A stretch of 64,000 nt of DNA from Candidatus Cloacimonadota bacterium (GCA_019429305.1 JAHYIR010000004.1:79781-143780); one strand, 5' to 3'. Positions 14,873 to 62,321 are shown, numbered from the stretch's first letter. The notes: generated by a model not told the origin, from the letters alone. Made by a program: numbers and translations.

Positions 14873-15004
14873 TGTCACCCTGAGTGACCCTTCACCAAAT
14901 TTGTAAGCACAACTGACTTCGTCGAGCTCGGAAGCAGCCACAAAGAAGTGTTTTCTTCGGTTCTTGTAGCTATAAGATTTGGTGAAGGATTGTATCGAAG
15001 GGGA
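14873..15004 (+). repeat. repeat module B carrying a nested module C (14915-14963)
   Basis: The B frame 'tgtcaccctgagtga ... ttgtatcgaagggga' encloses inner stem ccttcaccaaat/atttggtgaagg. The loop contains 'gacttcgtcgagctcggaagcagccacaaagaagtgttttcttcggttc', which is module C. Confidence 0.75.
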
Positions 15005-15045
15005 CGAAAATCTAAAACAGAGTCAGTGAATATAATCCTTGTTTT

Positions 15046-15079
15046 TGTCATGTCGAGCGAGGTCGAGACATCTCATCAC
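15046..15079 (+). repeat. repeat module A'
   Basis: 'tgtcatgtcgagcgaggtcgagacatctcatcac' has ATGTC/GACAT pairing. An inverted variant lies at 29249-29282. Confidence 0.6.
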
Positions 15080-15123: not shown

Positions 15124-15187
15124 GTGATGAGATCTCTCCATTCCAAACGACTCACTACCGTGATTCTTTCTCCAGTCGAGATGACAA
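15124..15187 (-). repeat. repeat module A (long form, inverted)
   Basis: The reverse complement is 'tgtcatctcgactggagaaagaatcacggtagtgagtcgtttggaatggagagatctcatcac'. About 105 bp, including 40 bp upstream (15083-15187), matches 33853-33957. Confidence 0.8.
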
Positions 15188-15251
15188 AGGAAAGGTCTTC
15201 ACTCAGGATGACATTAAGTCAGGCAACTATTCTGTTCAAGGTATCAGTAAT

Positions 15252-28629: not shown

Positions 28630-28750
28630 TACAAATATTTTCTTTCACTGATTATGTCAAAGAGTAATCTAAAAATTGATCAATCTGTTGCTGATTCTTT
28701 AACATATACTTCAGTCTGTGCCTTATGTCATCCTGAGTAACAATATACTG

Positions 28751-28846
28751 TGTCATCTCGACTGAAGAAAGGATCACGGAAGTGGATCTTTACTAACACC
28801 ACATTTGTCATCTCGACTGGAACGAAGTGAAATGGAGAGATCTCAT
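28751..28846 (+). repeat. 96-bp direct repeat, copy 1 (A-variant + A short form)
   Basis: It is identical to 29106-29201 except for 2 mismatches (cacgGaag/cacgAaag and aacaCcac/aacaGcac). Confidence 0.9.
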
Positions 28847-28916
28847 CGGAGACTAACTTATGATTATTATGTTCTTTCTTTTGTGTCGACAAAAGAAACG
28901 AACCAAAGAAAAACTC

Positions 28917-29050
28917 CCGGCTCTACAATTAACGGTTAAAAACCTTCTCGACTCTGCATCTTTCGCTAAACTTCTCGCTTCACTTGTCAAACAGTAGCTG
29001 CGAAGCAGATTCTCGTACAGTTTTCTTAACACCGTTATTTGTAATGCCGG
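28917..29050. repeat. 134-bp element with 20-bp terminal inverted repeats (MITE-like or long hairpin)
   Basis: The left end 'ccggctctacaattaacggt' matches the reverse complement of the right end, 'ccggcattacaaataacggt', at 17/20 positions. The interior is partly self-complementary (gcttc...gaagc). Confidence 0.6.
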
Positions 29051-29105
29051 ATGATCTATTCCCACCCGCCACCCAAATGGAGCGAAGCTCCATAAAAATA
29101 TAAGT

Positions 29106-29201
29106 TGTCATCTCGACTGAAGAAAGGATCACGAAAGTGGATCTTTACTAACAGCACATTTGTCATCTCGACTGGAACGAAGTGAAATGGAGAGATCTCA
29201 T
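29106..29201 (+). repeat. 96-bp direct repeat, copy 2
   Basis: See copy 1 at 28751-28846 (94/96 identical). Confidence 0.9.
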
Positions 29202-29312
29202 TACCGACCCACTTCAAATATGAAATCAAACTCGCTATTCCAATATTAGTGATGAGATATATCGATTACAATCGAATTGACAAAAAAAAAGAAAAGAGCA
29301 AGCAAAGATGAG

Positions 29313-29383
29313 ACATATACTTCAGTCTCTGACTTATGTCATCCTGAGTGATTCAGCTCTTTTGCTGAATTGTATCGAAGGAT
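29313..29383 (+). repeat. repeat modules H + B (compact B copy)
   Basis: 'acatatacttcagtctctgacttatgtcatcctgagtgattcagctcttttgctgaattgtatcgaaggatg'. The first 39 bp repeat 28702-28740. Confidence 0.8.
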
Positions 29384-29538
29384 GAATGATCTGAAAAGGT
29401 TTTCTTTTTACCTTCACCCTTTTTTATTGAATCCTATAACTTATCATGCAATTGAGCCCGACTATACAAACCGAATATGTTATCATGTCTTACAATCCCC
29501 AATTACCTTTTCAAAGACAAAAAAAGAAAAAGTAAAAG

Positions 29539-30888
29539 TTAAGGGGAAATCCTACTGACTCGGAACCCTAAGTTGTTATCAATGTAAGTAGCATTAAGTT
29601 CGATACCACGATAAGTAACGGTGCAATAGTAGCCACTACTCCTCCAACAGCCGCCACGTTTCATACGTCTGAGACCACTAACGGGACCTGTTGGATTAGT
29701 ATAAGCTCCTGATGGATAATTTTCCTGTGATATATCCCAACACAATTCCCAAACATTACCACTCATATCATAAGTCAACAATTCATTAGGAGCTTTAGTT
29801 CCTACATCGTGAGTTCGATTACTGGAGTTATTTAAATGCCAGGCAACTTCATTAAGATTATCACTACCACTGTAGAAATAACCTTGTGTTTGATTACCTC
29901 CCATAGCGGCAAACATCCATTCCATCTCTGTTGGTAATCTATAACCGTTAGCTGTCCAGTTGCAGGATACATTAATATGATTGGCATTGCTTGTATCCCA
30001 AACTGAAGGCCAGTTATCGGGATCTGTACCATAGGTACTGTAACTGTATGCAGGAGTTAGTCCTTCCAGCATGCTGAGACGGTTACAATACTCTATCGCA
30101 TTGAACCAAGAAACTCTTTCCACTGGACGGTCGGGATTATACCCCCAGTAGGAAGGATTGGTACCCATGACAGAAGCATACTCTGCTACGGTAACCTCAT
30201 ATTTTCCAATATAATATGATGACAGGGTTACAAGATAATTACCTCCGTCAGGACTGAAGCTTCCACCTTCGACAAATACAAGATTGTCTGCTATTGTTTG
30301 AATAATATAATCGGCTACAGCTATATCACTTTCCAGCCAGCCCGTCTTATATGCCCTCGCTTTGATAGTAGTGTTTCCGTCTATCATTATCGGATCTGAA
30401 TATACGGGTGATATCTCGTTAGGATCGGTGCCATCGGTTGTATATCTTATAGTTGCTCCCTCCGTAGTGCAGGTAATTGTTACCGTCTGCGGTGCATCGT
30501 ATGTCCCACCAGGCGGATCAAATGTCGGGGTTGCTACAGTTTCAGATGGTAGATCTTCTTCTATGGTATAGACTGCAGTTGCTATCTGACTTGCATCCCA
30601 ACCATTTTTAAACCCTTTGGCAATTAAGGTAGTATTCGTAGACACAATGATCGGAGTGACATATACTAATGATGATTCTGTTGGTTCAGTACCGTCTGTT
30701 GTGTATTTGATTACTGCTCCCTCAGTCTGACAAGTTATAGTTACTTCCTGAGTTTCTGTATATGTACCCCCAGCAGGACTGAATATTGGTGTTGCTACCT
30801 GTTTCTTCGGTTCTGTAGAATCTGAACACGAATTGATTACAATCAAGACTATTAGACAGGCTAAAATAAATACTAAACTCTTCTTCAT
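29539..30888 (-). CDS. surface lipoprotein: two tandem Ig-like (chitobiase/FN3-associated type) domains + C-terminal FGE-sulfatase (SUMF1/C-type-lectin fold) domain
   Basis: An aaggagg RBS precedes the ATG and the lipobox is INSC. The internal duplication is ATPIFSPAGGTYTETQEVTITCQTEGAVIKYTTDGTEP / ATPTFDPPGGTYDAPQTVTITCTTEGATIRYTTDGTDP. The FGE motifs are YYIGKYEVT, RVSWFNAIEYCN, YRLPTEMEW, GNVWE, RGGCW and LGFRVSR. Confidence 0.8.
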   Translation of the reverse strand: MKKSLVFILACLIVLIVINSCSDSTEPKKQVATPIFSPAGGTYTETQEVTITCQTEGAVIKYTTDGTEPTESSLVYVTPIIVSTNTTLIAKGFKNGWDASQIATAVYTIEEDLPSETVATPTFDPPGGTYDAPQTVTITCTTEGATIRYTTDGTDPNEISPVYSDPIMIDGNTTIKARAYKTGWLESDIAVADYIIQTIADNLVFVEGGSFSPDGGNYLVTLSSYYIGKYEVTVAEYASVMGTNPSYWGYNPDRPVERVSWFNAIEYCNRLSMLEGLTPAYSYSTYGTDPDNWPSVWDTSNANHINVSCNWTANGYRLPTEMEWMFAAMGGNQTQGYFYSGSDNLNEVAWHLNNSSNRTHDVGTKAPNELLTYDMSGNVWELCWDISQENYPSGAYTNPTGPVSGLRRMKRGGCWRSSGYYCTVTYRGIELNATYIDNNLGFRVSRISP

Positions 30889-31218
30889 CCTTTCCTCCTT
30901 TATTTGATTTGTTAAAATCGATTTTTTACTTTACCAAGACCTCAACATGACTTGTCGGAGTAAGTTCTCGGCTTGTACTATCATTATCTAAGCAAGCACG
31001 AATTTTTCTATCCCCTCGGAGAAGAGGAGAACAGTAGAGCAAAGCAAAACTAAAAATACTAGGTTTTTCATAAAACCTCCTATCGATTCTAACCTATTCT
31101 CCGATATGTAATAACGTCAATTTTTTTTTGATCTTGCTTATTTTTCTGAGATAAATCTGAGGAATTGGCTTTTTTATGGTCGCTATAAAGTACTATTAAG
31201 TCAATAAAGAATGCCTCA

Positions 31219-31371
31219 GACATACTCGGTTTTTGCAAGTTCTGTCCCCTACGATACAATTCTTGGTAGGAAAAGCAAGGAGCCACTCCAAGAATCACTC
31301 AGGGTGACAGCAGTCTATGTTATGAAAGGTGTGTCATCTCGACTGGAACAAAGTGGAATGGAGAGATCTCA
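31219..31371. repeat. left arm of an inverted-repeat pair (modules B inverted + A forward)
   Basis: It aligns end to end with the reverse complement of 33898-34065, including the linker between modules. Confidence 0.85.
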
Positions 31372-31408
31372 ACAGAGACTAACATCAAACACAAAAACAC
31401 ATTTCACC

Positions 31409-32188
31409 TTAAAGATTCTGAGGGATGTATTTGTTATAAAATCGCTCACAGATATCCCATAATTCAGGGGTCAGGATCTCCTGTATCTTATCTACTATGG
31501 CTTGATCAATTTTACCGTAATATGCTTCGGCAATACCACCGGCTATACAAGCCAGAGTATCACTATCACCACCCAATGATATGGCATTTCGAATAGTATC
31601 TTCATAAGAGTCGGCATCGAGGAAAGAGATTATCGCTTCCGGAACTGTTCCCTGGCAAGATTCATTAAAACTATAATAGGGTCTGATCTCATCGACAGTC
31701 CGAGTCAGGTCGTAATCAAAACGTTCTGTGATTTCTTTTCTGATAACTTCCTTATCATGAGTATTTCTTGCTAAGAAGATGCTTAAGGCAGTTGCTTGTG
31801 CACCCTTGATCCCTTCAGGATGGTTATGTGAGAATTCGGCAGATCTGGCTGCTTCTCTCAATACTTCGTCAATATCGTTATAAGCAAAGCCAACGGGACT
31901 GACTCGCATTGCTGAGCCGTTACCCCAACTGTTATATGGTTGCGGATCAGCAGAAGCGAGCCAATGAATAAATGAACCACCATAACCGGAGTTAGGATAT
32001 TTTCTGCCAATTTCTAATACAGCTCTCTTATAGTCACCATCACTCAAGATAGCTTGAGCAATGGCAACAGTAAGGACTGTATCGTCTGTAAAAAAACATG
32101 TAGAATGGAACAGAGGGAAATCTTTTGTTTTGATCGGATCAAACTCATAAACAGAACCAATAATATCACCGGCGATAGCACCGAGCAT
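31409..32188 (-). CDS. ADP-ribosylglycohydrolase family protein
   Basis: The motifs are GAIAGDIIGSVYEF, GNGSAMRVSPVG and GGDSDTLACIAGGIAEAYYG. The start was chosen at the second ATG (32188), preceded by GGAGGT. The ORF-track start is 32200. Confidence 0.85.
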   Translation of the reverse strand: MLGAIAGDIIGSVYEFDPIKTKDFPLFHSTCFFTDDTVLTVAIAQAILSDGDYKRAVLEIGRKYPNSGYGGSFIHWLASADPQPYNSWGNGSAMRVSPVGFAYNDIDEVLREAARSAEFSHNHPEGIKGAQATALSIFLARNTHDKEVIRKEITERFDYDLTRTVDEIRPYYSFNESCQGTVPEAIISFLDADSYEDTIRNAISLGGDSDTLACIAGGIAEAYYGKIDQAIVDKIQEILTPELWDICERFYNKYIPQNL

Positions 32189-33897: not shown

Positions 33898-34065
33898 TGA
33901 GGTCTCTCCATTGCGAAAGACTCACTTTCGTGATTCTTTCTCCAGTCGAGATGACAAACTTTTTATAATATAGACTACTGTCACCCTGAGTGATTCTTGG
34001 AGTGGCTTCTTGTTTTGGCTTTCCAAGAATTGTATCGAAGGGGACAGAACTTGCAAATCCGAGTC
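33898..34065. repeat. right arm of the inverted-repeat pair (modules A inverted + B forward)
   Basis: Its reverse complement matches 31219-31371 at roughly 85-90% by eye. There is one 21-nt indel, because this arm has the long form of A. Confidence 0.85.
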
Positions 34066-34075
34066 TGTACAATGT

Positions 34076-34138
34076 ATCCTTCGATACATTCTGTCCTATG
34101 CAGAGCAAGAAGAATAGGCCAGAACACTCAGGATGACA
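34076..34138 (-). repeat. repeat module B (inverted)
   Basis: The reverse complement is 'tgtcatcctgagtgttctggcctattcttcttgctctgcataggacagaatgtatcgaaggat'. It resembles 62161-62223. Confidence 0.75.
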
Positions 34139-34219
34139 TATGATAGTAGTTTAAAGTCGTCAATACTGTCCTGAGCTTGAAGAAGGCTCGGAAGCAGCCA
34201 CGAAGCCAACGAGGATGTT

Positions 34220-34308
34220 GACTTCGTCGAACTCGGAAGCAGCCACGAAGAAGTGTTTTCCTCGGTTCGATACAATTCGGAAAAAGAGCCGAATCACTCA
34301 AGATGACA
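34220..34308. repeat. module C (forward) abutting module B (inverted); a partial C core lies at 34185-34205
   Basis: 'gacttcgtcgaactcggaagcagccacgaagaagtgttttcctcggttc' is followed by 'gatacaattcggaaaaagagccgaatcactcaagatgaca'. Confidence 0.75.
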
Positions 34309-34399
34309 ATTTATGGTTGTTTAGACTCAGGAATGCGTGGAGATTTATACTACTTGACAATAAGATACGTGCAATTAATGATAAAAAAAGGAGGTTGCT

Positions 34400-62119: not shown

Positions 62120-62160
62120 GGTGTTTGATGCCTTGCTATGATAAGGTTTCTGCAAAGATT

Positions 62161-62247
62161 ATCCTATGATACATTCTGCCTAAAGCAGAGCAAGAAGCAA
62201 AGGTCAAAGCACTCAGGATGACAAAAAGATAAGACTGAAGTCTATGT
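62161..62247 (-). repeat. repeat modules B and H (both inverted)
   Basis: The reverse complement reads 'acatagacttcagtcttatctttttgtcatcctgagtg...gaatgtatcataggat'. The H-then-B order matches 28702-28740 and 29313-29383. Confidence 0.7.
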
Positions 62248-62321
62248 TACGGAAACAGCCATGAGCTCTGAAATACAAATGATACTTGACATAAATCAAT
62301 TTTATTAAAAGTCTTACCCTC

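What the first reader, a model, noticed from the sequence alone, without database searches (positions are those of the whole stretch)
29337..29383. B modules keep conserved unpaired flanks while the inner stem changes with compensatory substitutions
The compact B copy reads tgtCATCCT-gagtga-[attcagc tctttt gctgaat]-tgtatcga-AGGATG. The outer stem CATCCT/AGGATG and the segments GAGTGA and TTGTATCGA recur in other copies. The inner stem has a different sequence in each copy yet stays complementary. At 34268-34308 (inverted) it is attcgg/ccgaat. At 33979-34044 and 31246-31308 it is attcttgg/ccaagaat. At 14873-15004 it is ccttcaccaaat/atttggtgaagg. At 34076-34138 it is ttctg..cctat/atagg..cagaa. 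The outer stem also covaries (CACCCT.../...AGGGGA). Maintained pairing with changing sequence is the classic signature of selection on a folded RNA or ssDNA structure, as opposed to plain sequence repeats. I do not recognise it as a known RNA family.
Basis: seen in the sequence. Interest (0 to 1): 0.6.

Follow-up and report, generated by a model that had tools for sequence, protein, structure and literature searches.

The report
Structured TGTC-tagged hairpin repeat family
The "B module" is a real, roughly 100-copy intergenic hairpin repeat whose fixed flanks and freely co-varying inner stem show selection on a folded strand. It is a new structural variant of the REP-like TGTC-tagged repeats that, in other bacteria, bracket a tiny GIY-YIG nuclease gene, and not a stand-alone new RNA gene.

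Summary
The B module reads TGTC-AYCCU-GA-GUG-[variable hairpin]-YGU-AUC-GA-AGGRU. A covariance model finds 98 copies in this 2.39-Mb Cloacimonadota MAG. The exact pattern also occurs in other Cloacimonadota, Bacteroidota, Peregrinibacteria and a few other phyla, and in none of the viral contigs scanned. Covariation is strong: about 95% of cells pair, 13 of 15 pairs show double changes, and the score is 0.54 against 0.17 for shuffles. Rfam has no match, and the genome has no RAYT gene.

The "unpaired" flanks are structured on paper: tandem G·A pairs, a 3-nt bulge and two invariant wobble pairs, which is a k-turn-like junction. In the 15 head-out dimers they can instead pair with the partner arm.

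In related genomes the same modules bracket a small (about 95–135 aa) GIY-YIG nuclease gene. In a 201-genome phylum sample, motif and gene co-occur with an odds ratio of 15. This genome has no such gene, so its copies are orphans. They are saturated with change everywhere except the flanks, the stem pairing and a loop core, CTTCTTGCT.

Best reading (0.6): a REP/REPIN-like DNA hairpin repeat whose junction is an enzyme recognition site. This scan has already noted the GIY-YIG/TGTC-repeat pairing on other genomes.

The parts
29337..29384 (+). Focal compact B copy (48 nt). TGTC tag 29337-29340. Outer stem CATCCT 29340-29345 with AGGATG 29379-29384. Tandem GA 29346-29347 opposite GA 29377-29378. 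Inner helix GTGATTCAGC 29348-29357 with GCTGAATTGT 29364-29373, whose first three pairs are G·T, T·G, G·T. Loop TCTTTT 29358-29363. 3-nt bulge ATC 29374-29376.
   Evidence: Sequence read. It is the best R1 hit in the genome (65.2 bits, E 1e-15). RNA fold -19.9 kcal/mol, z -4.65.
14873..15007 (+). Long B copy (CACCC type, inner stem CCTTCACCAAAT/ATTTGGTGAAGG) with the 48-50-nt module C nested in its loop (14914-14963).
   Evidence: module C family D1.
31242..31311 (-). B copy, CACCC / ATTCTTGG...CCAAGAAT type (3' flank GTATCGTAGG, one mismatch).
   Evidence: (C28:111022-111091).
33977..34047 (+). Left arm of a head-out heterodimer: B copy, CACCC / ATTCTTGG type.
   Evidence: The dimer folds as a four-way junction in ssDNA (-36.2 kcal/mol, z -6.9).
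34048..34071 (.). 24-nt spacer between the two arms. Across the genome's dimers its length is conserved (22-25 nt in 12 of 15) but its sequence is not.
34072..34140 (-). Right arm of the dimer: B copy, CATCC / TTCTGGCC..GGACAGAA type, with loop core CTTCTTGCT.
34257..34310 (-). B copy (inner stem ATTCGG/CCGAAT) whose 3' flank is cut after GTATCGAA by an inserted module C (CCGAGGAAAACACTTC...).
   Evidence: (C28:114037-114090).
62157..62225 (-). Decaying B copy (3' flank GTATCATAGG).
   Evidence: (30.7 bits).
28726..28739 (+). Truncated B head (TGTCATCCTGAGTA) with no inner hairpin or 3' flank.
   Evidence: (D13).
15200..15213 (-). Truncated B head (TGTCATCCTGAGTG on the minus strand).

Best explanation
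The B module is a REP/REPIN-like dispersed DNA hairpin repeat of the TGTC-tagged superfamily. Its architecture is composite: a TGTC tag, a 5-6-bp outer stem, a fixed helical junction and an inner hairpin that is free in sequence and length.

The junction consists of tandem G·A pairs, a 3-nt bulge AUC and two invariant wobble pairs.

The fixed junction and tag are most likely the sequence- and shape-specific site read by a partner enzyme on one folded strand or on an extruded cruciform. The best candidate enzyme is the small GIY-YIG nuclease whose gene is bracketed by these modules in other genomes.

The inner hairpin is needed only as a helix. It therefore drifts by compensatory change while the flanks stay fixed.

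Two unlike arms, placed heads-out 22-25 nt apart, form an ORF-less, MITE/REPIN-like doublet.

This genome holds about 100 old, diversified copies and no nuclease gene in the assembly.

Shown: the repeat family, its structure-preserving covariation, its distribution, and its physical and phyletic association with the nuclease gene.

Inferred: that the nuclease recognises, cuts or mobilises the module, and that the selective agent is mobility and not a host function.
For: Copy number and dispersal: 98 R1 hits, almost all intergenic.

Dimers: 15 head-out pairs. Spacer length is constant (22-25 nt in 12 of 15) while spacer sequence is unrelated, and nearly all pairs join a CATCC arm to a CACCC arm.

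Structure constraint.

Within-genome divergence profile: mean pairwise identity is at least 0.9 in the flanks, 0.3-0.5 in stems and most of the loop, and 0.6-0.9 in the loop core CTTCTTGCT. The inner hairpins never occur without B flanks.

Patchy, cross-phylum distribution: B is present in the window's genus and not found in the three other genera of its family that were searched. It is present in families f11 and f2 of the same order, and in Bacteroidota, Peregrinibacteria and others.

Nuclease gene next to B or related modules:
- 9 of about 120 motif-ascertained 8-kb loci hold such a gene, and 5 of those have a B module 12-60 nt past its stop codon.
- Protein-ascertained loci carry module(+)-ORF-module(-). 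Examples are L154 (G037) with perfect 30-bp inverted ends, L145, L146 and L151, and the B-type loci L139, L150, L126/L130, L128 and L129.
- 20 of 28 protein-ascertained genes have a B or simple GA module within 220 nt. Several of the rest carry other tagged hairpins, judged by eye.

Co-occurrence in 201 Cloacimonadota genomes: both 12, motif only 10, gene only 13, neither 166. Odds ratio 15, p=2.6e-7. Within family f11 the odds ratio is 5.8, p=0.01.

The protein is a GIY-YIG catalytic domain (PF01541, 71 bits).

No RAYT gene in the genome, as reported for CGTC REPs (PMC3733652).
Against: The genome has no GIY-YIG gene other than uvrC and no recognisable remnant. Yet its flanks are highly conserved while the spacers and loops are saturated. 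That fits continuing constraint, possibly a host or RNA function, better than relics of a lost enzyme.

Co-occurrence is imperfect: 10 motif-only and 13 gene-only genomes. Related genomes are not independent samples.

The direction of the association is not established. The nuclease gene could be a parasite that homes into the repeats.

No target-site duplication or empty site could be shown. The closest relatives are about 70% identical at the DNA level, and no second strain is on record.

No bias relative to the replication strand (13:13), unlike IS200/IS605-type ssDNA elements.

No biochemical evidence exists for this nuclease family.
Confidence: 0.6

Rival explanations
1. B modules act as RNA. 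Each is transcribed within UTRs or spacers and folds into a k-turn hairpin. The outer stem would be the NC helix, followed by tandem G·A pairs and the 3-nt bulge AUC, with the inner hairpin as the C helix. It would be bound by the bacterial L7Ae homologue YlxQ or another protein, and would affect mRNA stability, processing or termination. Covariation would then reflect host-level selection on the RNA fold.
For: [quoted passage not shown]

GA/GA is essentially invariant: 136 of 137 at three of the four positions, 137 of 137 at the fourth.

Across sister module families the bulge varies (AUC, GUC, AUG, GCC, GAC) while GA/GA does not.

The first inner pairs are G·U and U·G, which pair only on this strand.

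Single copies in unidirectional spacers are sense to the flanking genes 23:9 (p=0.02). Replication strand does not explain this (13:13).

Wobble pairs exceed A·C mismatches 25:6 across phyla.

The genome encodes a YlxQ-type L7Ae protein in the nusA-infB operon.

Strong conservation of the flanks in a genome without the nuclease.
Against: 28% of singles in unidirectional spacers are antisense, and every dimer puts one arm antisense.

Wobble versus A·C is 9:7 within this genome.

YlxQ is present in 28 of 31 relatives, whereas B is in 4 of 31, so there is no specific co-occurrence.

The -1b·-1n pair is U·G rather than the usual C-G (recalled from memory).

Tandem sheared G·A pairs are also stable in DNA (recalled from memory).

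In nuclease units the two modules lie on opposite strands, as transposon-like ends do.

Rfam gives only sub-threshold C/D-box hits (19.7 bits against a threshold of 44).

Confidence: 0.2
2. The complementarity of the inner stem is kept mechanically and not by selection. Template switching within quasi-palindromes, or fold-back repair, copies a change in one arm onto the other. 'Compensatory' changes would then be a by-product of DNA hairpin metabolism.
For: The element is a DNA repeat with near-perfect inner palindromes. Within this genome the wobble and A·C intermediates are equally rare (9 against 7 among about 650 pairs), as expected if imperfect states are quickly corrected on either strand. 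Quasi-palindrome correction is an established mutational process (recalled from memory).
Against: It does not explain why the non-palindromic flanks, the asymmetric G·T/T·G pairs, the 3-nt bulge and the loop core stay fixed while everything else saturates. It also does not explain why the outer stem covaries across an asymmetric junction. At most it is a contributing mechanism inside the best explanation.
Confidence: 0.1
3. The GIY-YIG gene is not the repeats' mobiliser. It would be a selfish homing-type gene that targets the conserved junction of pre-existing repeats. The repeats themselves would be spread or maintained by something else, either an unknown enzyme or a host function.
For: The repeats are clearly used as landing sites by other small elements. 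At least 12 B copies are cut at exactly GTATCGAA| by module C, which also sits in hairpin loops. Ten motif-positive genomes lack the gene. In G014 the ORF lies between two complete dimers and not inside one.
Against: In most protein-ascertained loci the ORF sits precisely between one (+) and one (-) module with heads outwards. The inverted ends are up to 30 bp and perfect. The module type changes together with the nuclease lineage. That pattern fits a unit, not random landing.
Confidence: 0.15

Closest known systems
CGTC/TGTC-tagged REP superfamily (Di Nocera, De Gregorio & Rocco 2013, BMC Genomics 14:522, PMC3733652; includes Neisseria dRS3 and Rickettsia RPE-4/RPE-6)
   Same: A short tagged hairpin repeat. 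The paper states that the tag CGTC is 'changed to TGTC' in many repeats. The stem starts with A-T directly after the tag. It is extragenic, occurs in tens to hundreds of copies and in inverted dimers, many of them heterodimers, with spacers of similar length but different sequence. It has no RAYT partner and is found in several phyla, Bacteroidetes included.
   Different: The described families have an uninterrupted 8-9-bp stem, a 4-5-nt loop and a CCA tail. B has a 5-6-bp outer stem and a conserved asymmetric junction (GA/GA plus the 3-nt bulge). It also has a second helix of 7-14 bp with loops of 3 to about 60 nt, and no CCA tail. Cloacimonadota are not in the paper, and no enzyme was proposed there.
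REP/REPIN-RAYT systems ('REPtrons'; Nunvar 2010 PMC2817692; Bertels & Rainey 2011 PMC3116915)
   Same: The logic is the same. A hairpin repeat occurs singly and as inverted doublets. A small nuclease gene is flanked by its cognate repeats. The population is long-lived and diversified, with conserved recognition parts.
   Different: The tag is TGTC and not GTAG. There is no Y1/HUH transposase in the genome (PF01797: 0 hits). The candidate enzyme is a GIY-YIG nuclease, an unrelated fold. No such gene is present in this genome.
Kink-turn (k-turn) RNA motif, e.g. Kt-7, box C/D, SAM-I and T-box k-turns (definition in PMC8191799)
   Same: A 3-nt bulge is followed by tandem G·A / A·G pairs between two helices. 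The 5' strand contains CUGA, like a D box. The GA pairs are invariant while the bulge varies between sister families.
   Different: Existence as RNA is unproven. The pair next to the bulge is an invariant U·G wobble. The bulge and neighbouring bases are invariant within the B family, which is more sequence constraint than a purely architectural k-turn needs.
[quoted passage not shown]
   Same: The dimers have inverted terminal 'heads' (TGTCAYCCTGAGTG ... CACTCAGGRTGACA) around a short non-coding interior. Longer relatives carry an ORF between the same ends.
   Different: No target-site duplication was seen. The interior spacer is not conserved. About half the copies are single arms. The associated ORF is not a known transposase.

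Membership tests
CGTC/TGTC-tagged REPs (PMC3733652) | Conserved tetranucleotide tag CGTC (or TGTC/CCTC) at one end | tested here: met
   T 131, G 136, T 137 and C 136 of 137 distinct copies. The C can also pair with the far end (C-G in 97 of 137).
CGTC/TGTC-tagged REPs (PMC3733652) | Uninterrupted stem of 8-9 bp starting with A-T pairs, and a loop of 4-5 nt | tested here: not met
   The outer stem is 5-6 bp. It is followed by the GA/GA junction with its 3-nt bulge and a second helix. Loops run from 3 to about 60 nt. Only the first A-T pair is kept (111 of 137).
CGTC/TGTC-tagged REPs (PMC3733652) | Short unpaired 3-nt tail, consensus CCA | tested here: not met
   Columns 86-88 have no consensus: A 65 / G 32 / C 28; A 48 / C 38; A 51 / T 34.
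CGTC/TGTC-tagged REPs (PMC3733652) | Extragenic, multi-copy, inverted dimers common, no flanked tyrosine transposase | tested here: met
   98 copies, 15 inverted dimers and no PF01797 hit. Whether 'heads-out' equals the paper's HH class could not be read from the text.
REP/REPIN-RAYT | GTAG tag and a RAYT (Y1 transposase, PF01797) gene flanked by the repeats | tested here: not met
   The tag is TGTC. PF01797 gave 0 matches in a 99.9%-complete genome, while the control genomes responded.
k-turn RNA | [quoted passage not shown] | tested here: met
   On sequence only: C helix ...GU, then AUC, then GA-AGG, opposite CCU-GA-GU.... The definition was read.
k-turn RNA | The element exists as RNA and adopts the kinked fold or binds an L7Ae-family protein | not testable with these tools
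A YlxQ-type gene is present, but it is also present in 28 of 31 relatives regardless of the motif.
MITE | Terminal inverted repeats plus a target-site duplication, derived from an autonomous element | tested here: inconclusive
   Inverted heads are present in 15 dimers. No duplication is evident in their flanks. ORF-bearing relatives exist only in other genomes.
Any Rfam 15 family (including box C/D sRNAs) | Match at or above the family's gathering score | tested here: not met
   0 hits in the whole window at gathering thresholds. The best permissive hit is SNORD38 at 19.7 bits against a threshold of 44.

The most novel reading that the evidence does not exclude
The conserved junction is a genuine kinked helical junction that serves as the recognition handle of a new kind of mobile element. 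In this reading a 95-aa GIY-YIG nuclease mobilises TGTC-tagged hairpins, which would make it the 'missing enzyme' of the CGTC/TGTC REP superfamily. The B variant would also show that only the junction and a helix are required. In addition, the about 100 orphan copies in this genome would persist because their transcripts form k-turn hairpins bound by the bacterial L7Ae homologue YlxQ, that is, a dispersed repeat co-opted as an RNP-forming RNA element.
Probability: 0.12. Interest if true: 0.8.

Novelty: new variant of a known kind. Interest (0 to 1): 0.5.

Why it matters
REP-type repeats fill bacterial intergenic DNA, and for the large CGTC/TGTC-tagged class no partner enzyme or required structure is known.

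The B variant works as a natural mutagenesis experiment. Hundreds of copies across phyla keep a 14-nt and an 11-nt flank, two G·A pairs, a 3-nt bulge and 'any helix', and they let everything else drift. That defines precisely what a partner protein must read, and it gives ready-made substrates and negative controls for testing the small GIY-YIG nuclease.

It also raises a testable possibility that a dispersed bacterial repeat forms k-turns in RNA.

For genome annotation, it explains a large share of the repeat-filled spacers of this Cloacimonadota genome. It also warns against calling the flanked genes 'cassettes'.

Tried and rejected
1. Rfam at gathering and permissive thresholds gave nothing relevant.
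2. RAYT/Y1 transposase as partner: no match in the genome.
3. L7Ae/YlxQ co-occurrence as a test of the k-turn idea was uninformative, because the gene is nearly universal in the order.
4. Inner hairpins as independent nested insertions: rejected for this genome, because they never occur without B flanks.
5. Replication-strand bias like IS200/IS605: none (13:13).
6. Phage carriage: no exact match in the viral contigs.
7. Empty-site and insertion-polymorphism tests failed. The other genomes of the family that matched are only about 66-73% identical over the alignable genes and their spacers do not align. No identical or near-identical strain is on record (the next homologue is 77% identical).
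9. Hammerhead and other self-cleaving ribozyme cores were considered from memory and rejected, since CUGAGUGA...CGAAGG does not fit CUGANGA...GAAA.
10. GIY-YIG remnants in the genome by tblastn: none with E below 0.5.
11. The literature held no paper linking GIY-YIG with REP, RAYT, REPIN or dRS3 in the searchable library. RepRanger 2025 does not mention GIY-YIG or Cloacimonadota, and mentions CGTC only once.

Full report
**What is there**

The focal copy (window 29337-29384, + strand) reads TGTC-ATCCT-GA-GTG-ATTCAGC-tctttt-GCTGAAT-TGT-ATC-GA-AGGATG. The window also holds a decaying copy at 62157-62225(-) and two truncated heads at 28726-28739(+) and 15200-15213(-).

The genome is a 2.39-Mb, 52-contig, 38% GC MAG that is 99.9% complete. 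Titles of matching public records place its genus in Cloacimonadota (the CAZSVG01 records carry the same matches as G001).

A simple two-anchor search finds 85 left-right anchor pairings in the genome, a few of them nested or spurious. The exact pattern occurs 45-53 times, with none for the reversed-pattern control. A covariance model built from 38 short copies of many phyla (A1, R1) finds 98 copies at E<=0.01.

**Is the covariation real?**

Yes.
- On A1 the inner helix is 98.5% paired. Six of 9 pairs show changes on both sides, with 3-5 pair types per position. The covariation score is 0.549 against 0.169 for shuffles (0 of 500 reach it) and at most 0.145 when partners are slid.
- On 137 distinct copies from 83 loci (A2), 94.4% of cells pair and 13 of 15 pairs have double changes. 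The score is 0.538 against 0.167 for shuffles and at most 0.138 for slid partners.
- The outer stem covaries too: U-A/C-G/U·G at one pair, and C-G/G-C/A-U at the next.
- A2 was fitted to the model, which leans towards the structure. A1 was a plain MAFFT alignment and gives the same picture.

Within this one genome, 61 copies of 66-73 nt have a mean pairwise identity of at least 0.9 in the flanks. In the stems and most of the loop it is only 0.3-0.5, which is close to saturation. A loop core, CTTCTTGCT, holds at 0.6-0.9.

The inner hairpins are never found away from B flanks. They are therefore part of the element and not independent insertions.

**The 'unpaired' flanks**

1. The bases next to the inner stem pair as G·U, U·G and then G·U/G-C/A-U. 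The first two are almost invariant (136 and 129 of 137). The third covaries (GU 84, GC 38, UA 4, AU 3).

2. What remains is CCU-GA on the 5' strand and AUC-GA-AGG on the 3' strand. That is two tandem G·A pairs next to the outer stem and a 3-nt bulge next to the inner helix.
   - Sister module families in this window and in related loci keep stem-GA...GA-stem. They change both the outer stem and the three bases before the 3' GA.
   - Outer stems seen: AUCCU/AGGAU, AUGCU/AGCAU, AUGGU/ACCAU, ACACU/AGUGU, AUCUC/GAGAU, AUGUC/GACAU, AUUUC/GAAAU.
   - Bases before the 3' GA: AUC, GUC, AUG, GCC, GAC.
   - That argues for the G·A reading over the alternative GA/UC Watson-Crick pairing that RNAfold prefers.

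3. In dimers the flanks of one arm are complementary to those of the inverted partner. The dimer at 33975-34142 folds as a four-way junction in ssDNA (-36.2 kcal/mol, z -6.9).

**Genomic behaviour**

Copies are intergenic. The few 'intragenic' cases lie in short ORFs that are probably spurious. Copies are spread over spacer types roughly in proportion to spacer length: unidirectional 54, divergent 25, convergent 7. Background spacer lengths are 66%, 23% and 11%.

Fifteen pairs are heads-out dimers. Twelve have a 22-25-nt spacer of unrelated sequence, and the other three have 71-111 nt. Almost every dimer joins a CATCC/TTCTG... arm to a CACCC/ATTC..GG arm. About a third to 45% of copies have such a partner, with few decayed intermediates.

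Single copies in unidirectional spacers are sense to the genes 23:9 (p=0.02). They show no GC-skew strand preference (13:13).

At least 12 copies are interrupted at exactly GTATCGAA| by the 48-nt module C. The same module sits in the loop of the copy at 14873-15007.

**Distribution**

The exact pattern is in the window's genus (G000, G001). It was not found in the three other genera of its family that were searched. It is present in families f11 and f2 of the same order.

A scan of one genome per species returned more than 120 stretches from Cloacimonadota, Bacteroidota (Owenweeksia, Schleiferiaceae, Salibacteraceae, Crocinitomicaceae, Bacteroidaceae and others), Peribacteria/Peregrinibacteria and a few other phyla.

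None was found in 2.9 million viral contigs. The flanks are the same everywhere, and the inner hairpin differs freely in sequence and length.

**The nuclease link**

I clustered the ORFs in the motif-ascertained loci. The second most widespread cluster was a small protein (95-135 aa) with a GIY-YIG catalytic domain (PF01541, 71 bits). In five of the nine loci that carry it, a B module or dimer lies 12-60 nt past its stop codon.

Starting from the protein instead gives the same result. Loci in Cloacimonadota and two Bacteroidota genomes show module(+)-ORF-module(-) with the TGTC heads outwards.
- L154 has perfect 30-bp inverted ends.
- L145, L146, L151, L160 and L165 carry the simple GA module.
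- L139, L150, L126/L130, L128 and L129 carry B-type modules.

Twenty of 28 protein-ascertained genes have a B, short-B or simple GA module within 220 nt. By eye, several of the rest carry other tagged hairpins.

In 201 Cloacimonadota genomes the counts are: both 12, motif only 10, gene only 13, neither 166. The odds ratio is 15 (p=2.6e-7). Within family f11 it is 5.8 (p=0.01). These genomes are related to one another, so the p-values overstate the case.

The window's genome has only uvrC as a GIY-YIG hit and no remnant of the small gene.

After reaching this point I consulted the scan's notes. The same pairing (a GIY-YIG gene inside TGTC-tagged hairpin doublets) has been noted repeatedly on other genomes. 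An earlier follow-up on this window had already filed the repeats under the CGTC/TGTC REP superfamily. I could find no paper that links GIY-YIG nucleases with REPs.

**Most likely mechanism**

The B module is a REP/REPIN-like DNA hairpin repeat. The tag and the junction are what a partner protein reads. The inner hairpin only has to be a helix, and that is why it covaries.

The heads-out heterodimers look like the two unlike ends of a nuclease-bearing unit with the ORF missing. The saturated divergence of everything except flanks, pairing and loop core fits a long-lived replicating population in which only competent copies leave descendants, as proposed for REPINs. Alternatively it reflects selection in place.

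Steps shown: family, structure, covariation, distribution, association. Steps inferred: recognition or cleavage by the nuclease, mobility, and the level at which selection acts.

**What argues otherwise**

Three observations would be natural for an RNA element: the absence of the nuclease gene here despite very clean flanks, the 23:9 sense bias, and the k-turn-like junction with a YlxQ-type L7Ae gene in the genome.

Against an RNA role:
- Dimers always put one arm antisense.
- Wobble pairs do not outnumber A·C mismatches inside this genome (9:7). They do across phyla, 25:6, on a model-fitted alignment.
- YlxQ is present in 28 of 31 relatives irrespective of the motif.
- Tandem G·A pairs are also stable in DNA (from memory).

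Palindrome correction may help keep the stems perfect, but it cannot explain the fixed asymmetric parts.

**Comparison with known families**

The family shares several features with the CGTC/TGTC-tagged REPs of Di Nocera et al. 2013: the tag, the A-T start of the stem, inverted (often hetero-) dimers with length-conserved spacers, the lack of a RAYT, and the multi-phylum spread. It fails their stem, loop and tail definitions.

It is not a GTAG/RAYT REP. It is not in Rfam. It meets the sequence definition of a k-turn but has not been shown to be RNA.

I therefore class it as a new structural variant of a known kind of repeat.

**Verdict**

Interest is moderate (0.5). The covariation is unusually clean and defines the required parts of an orphan repeat class. 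However, the class and its nuclease link have already been flagged elsewhere in this scan, and the decisive tests (RNA evidence, biochemistry, mobility) could not be done here.

Noticed in passing
G000-wide; in the window e.g. 34098-34106(-), 34008-34016(+), 62187-62195(-): The 66-73-nt B copies share a conserved apical loop core, CTTCTTGCT (pairwise identity 0.6-0.9), while the rest of the loop is saturated. In a dimer the two loop cores are complementary, so a kissing interaction is possible.
   Followed up: partly
window 34257-34310(-) and at least 11 other G000 copies (e.g. C52:88593, C52:94400, C46:40020, C23:273862): Module C (48 nt...CCGAGGAAAACACTTCTTCGTGGCTGCTTCCGAG...) interrupts B copies at exactly the same point, GTATCGAA|. 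It also sits in the loop of the copy at 14873-15007. This implies site-specific insertion into the B 3' flank. Module C, unlike B, also occurs in the sister genera G002 and G004.
   Followed up: partly
window 28702-28725, 29313-29336 and 62226-62259(-): A roughly 24-nt block (ACATATACTTCAGTCTNTGNCTTA) lies directly 5' of three B heads. It may be an extension of the element or another module that docks at the TGTC end.
   Followed up: no
window 15048-15075, 28751-28846, 29105-29201, 31332-31370, 33916-33957(-), 15146-15189(-): Other module families in the same spacers share the plan TGTC-A-stem-GA...GA-stem (CATGTC-GA-GCGAGGTC-GA-GACATC; CATCTC-GA-CTGG..hairpin..AATG-GA-GAGATC). Tandem GA next to a covarying outer stem is therefore a superfamily feature.
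   Followed up: partly
L127, L132, L144, L148, L162, L163 (other Cloacimonadota genomes): In several nuclease units the ORF's TGA stop codon lies just inside, or abuts, the downstream module: inside the module's CCTGA in L127 and L132, and directly before the inverted module in L144, L148, L162 and L163. The gene and the repeat end therefore overlap or abut.
   Followed up: no
G000:C26:31220-31441(-) (locus L125): A 117-aa L7Ae-family (YlxQ-like) protein is encoded in a nusA-ylxR-ylxQ-infB operon. The family is present in 28 of 31 genomes of the order that were searched.
   Followed up: partly
window 28669-31515 versus G002:C1:16685-17664: In a sister genus the syntenic interval is about 1 kb instead of 2.8 kb. 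It appears to lack the FGE-sulfatase-like gene (29539-30888) and its two repeat-filled spacers.
   Followed up: no
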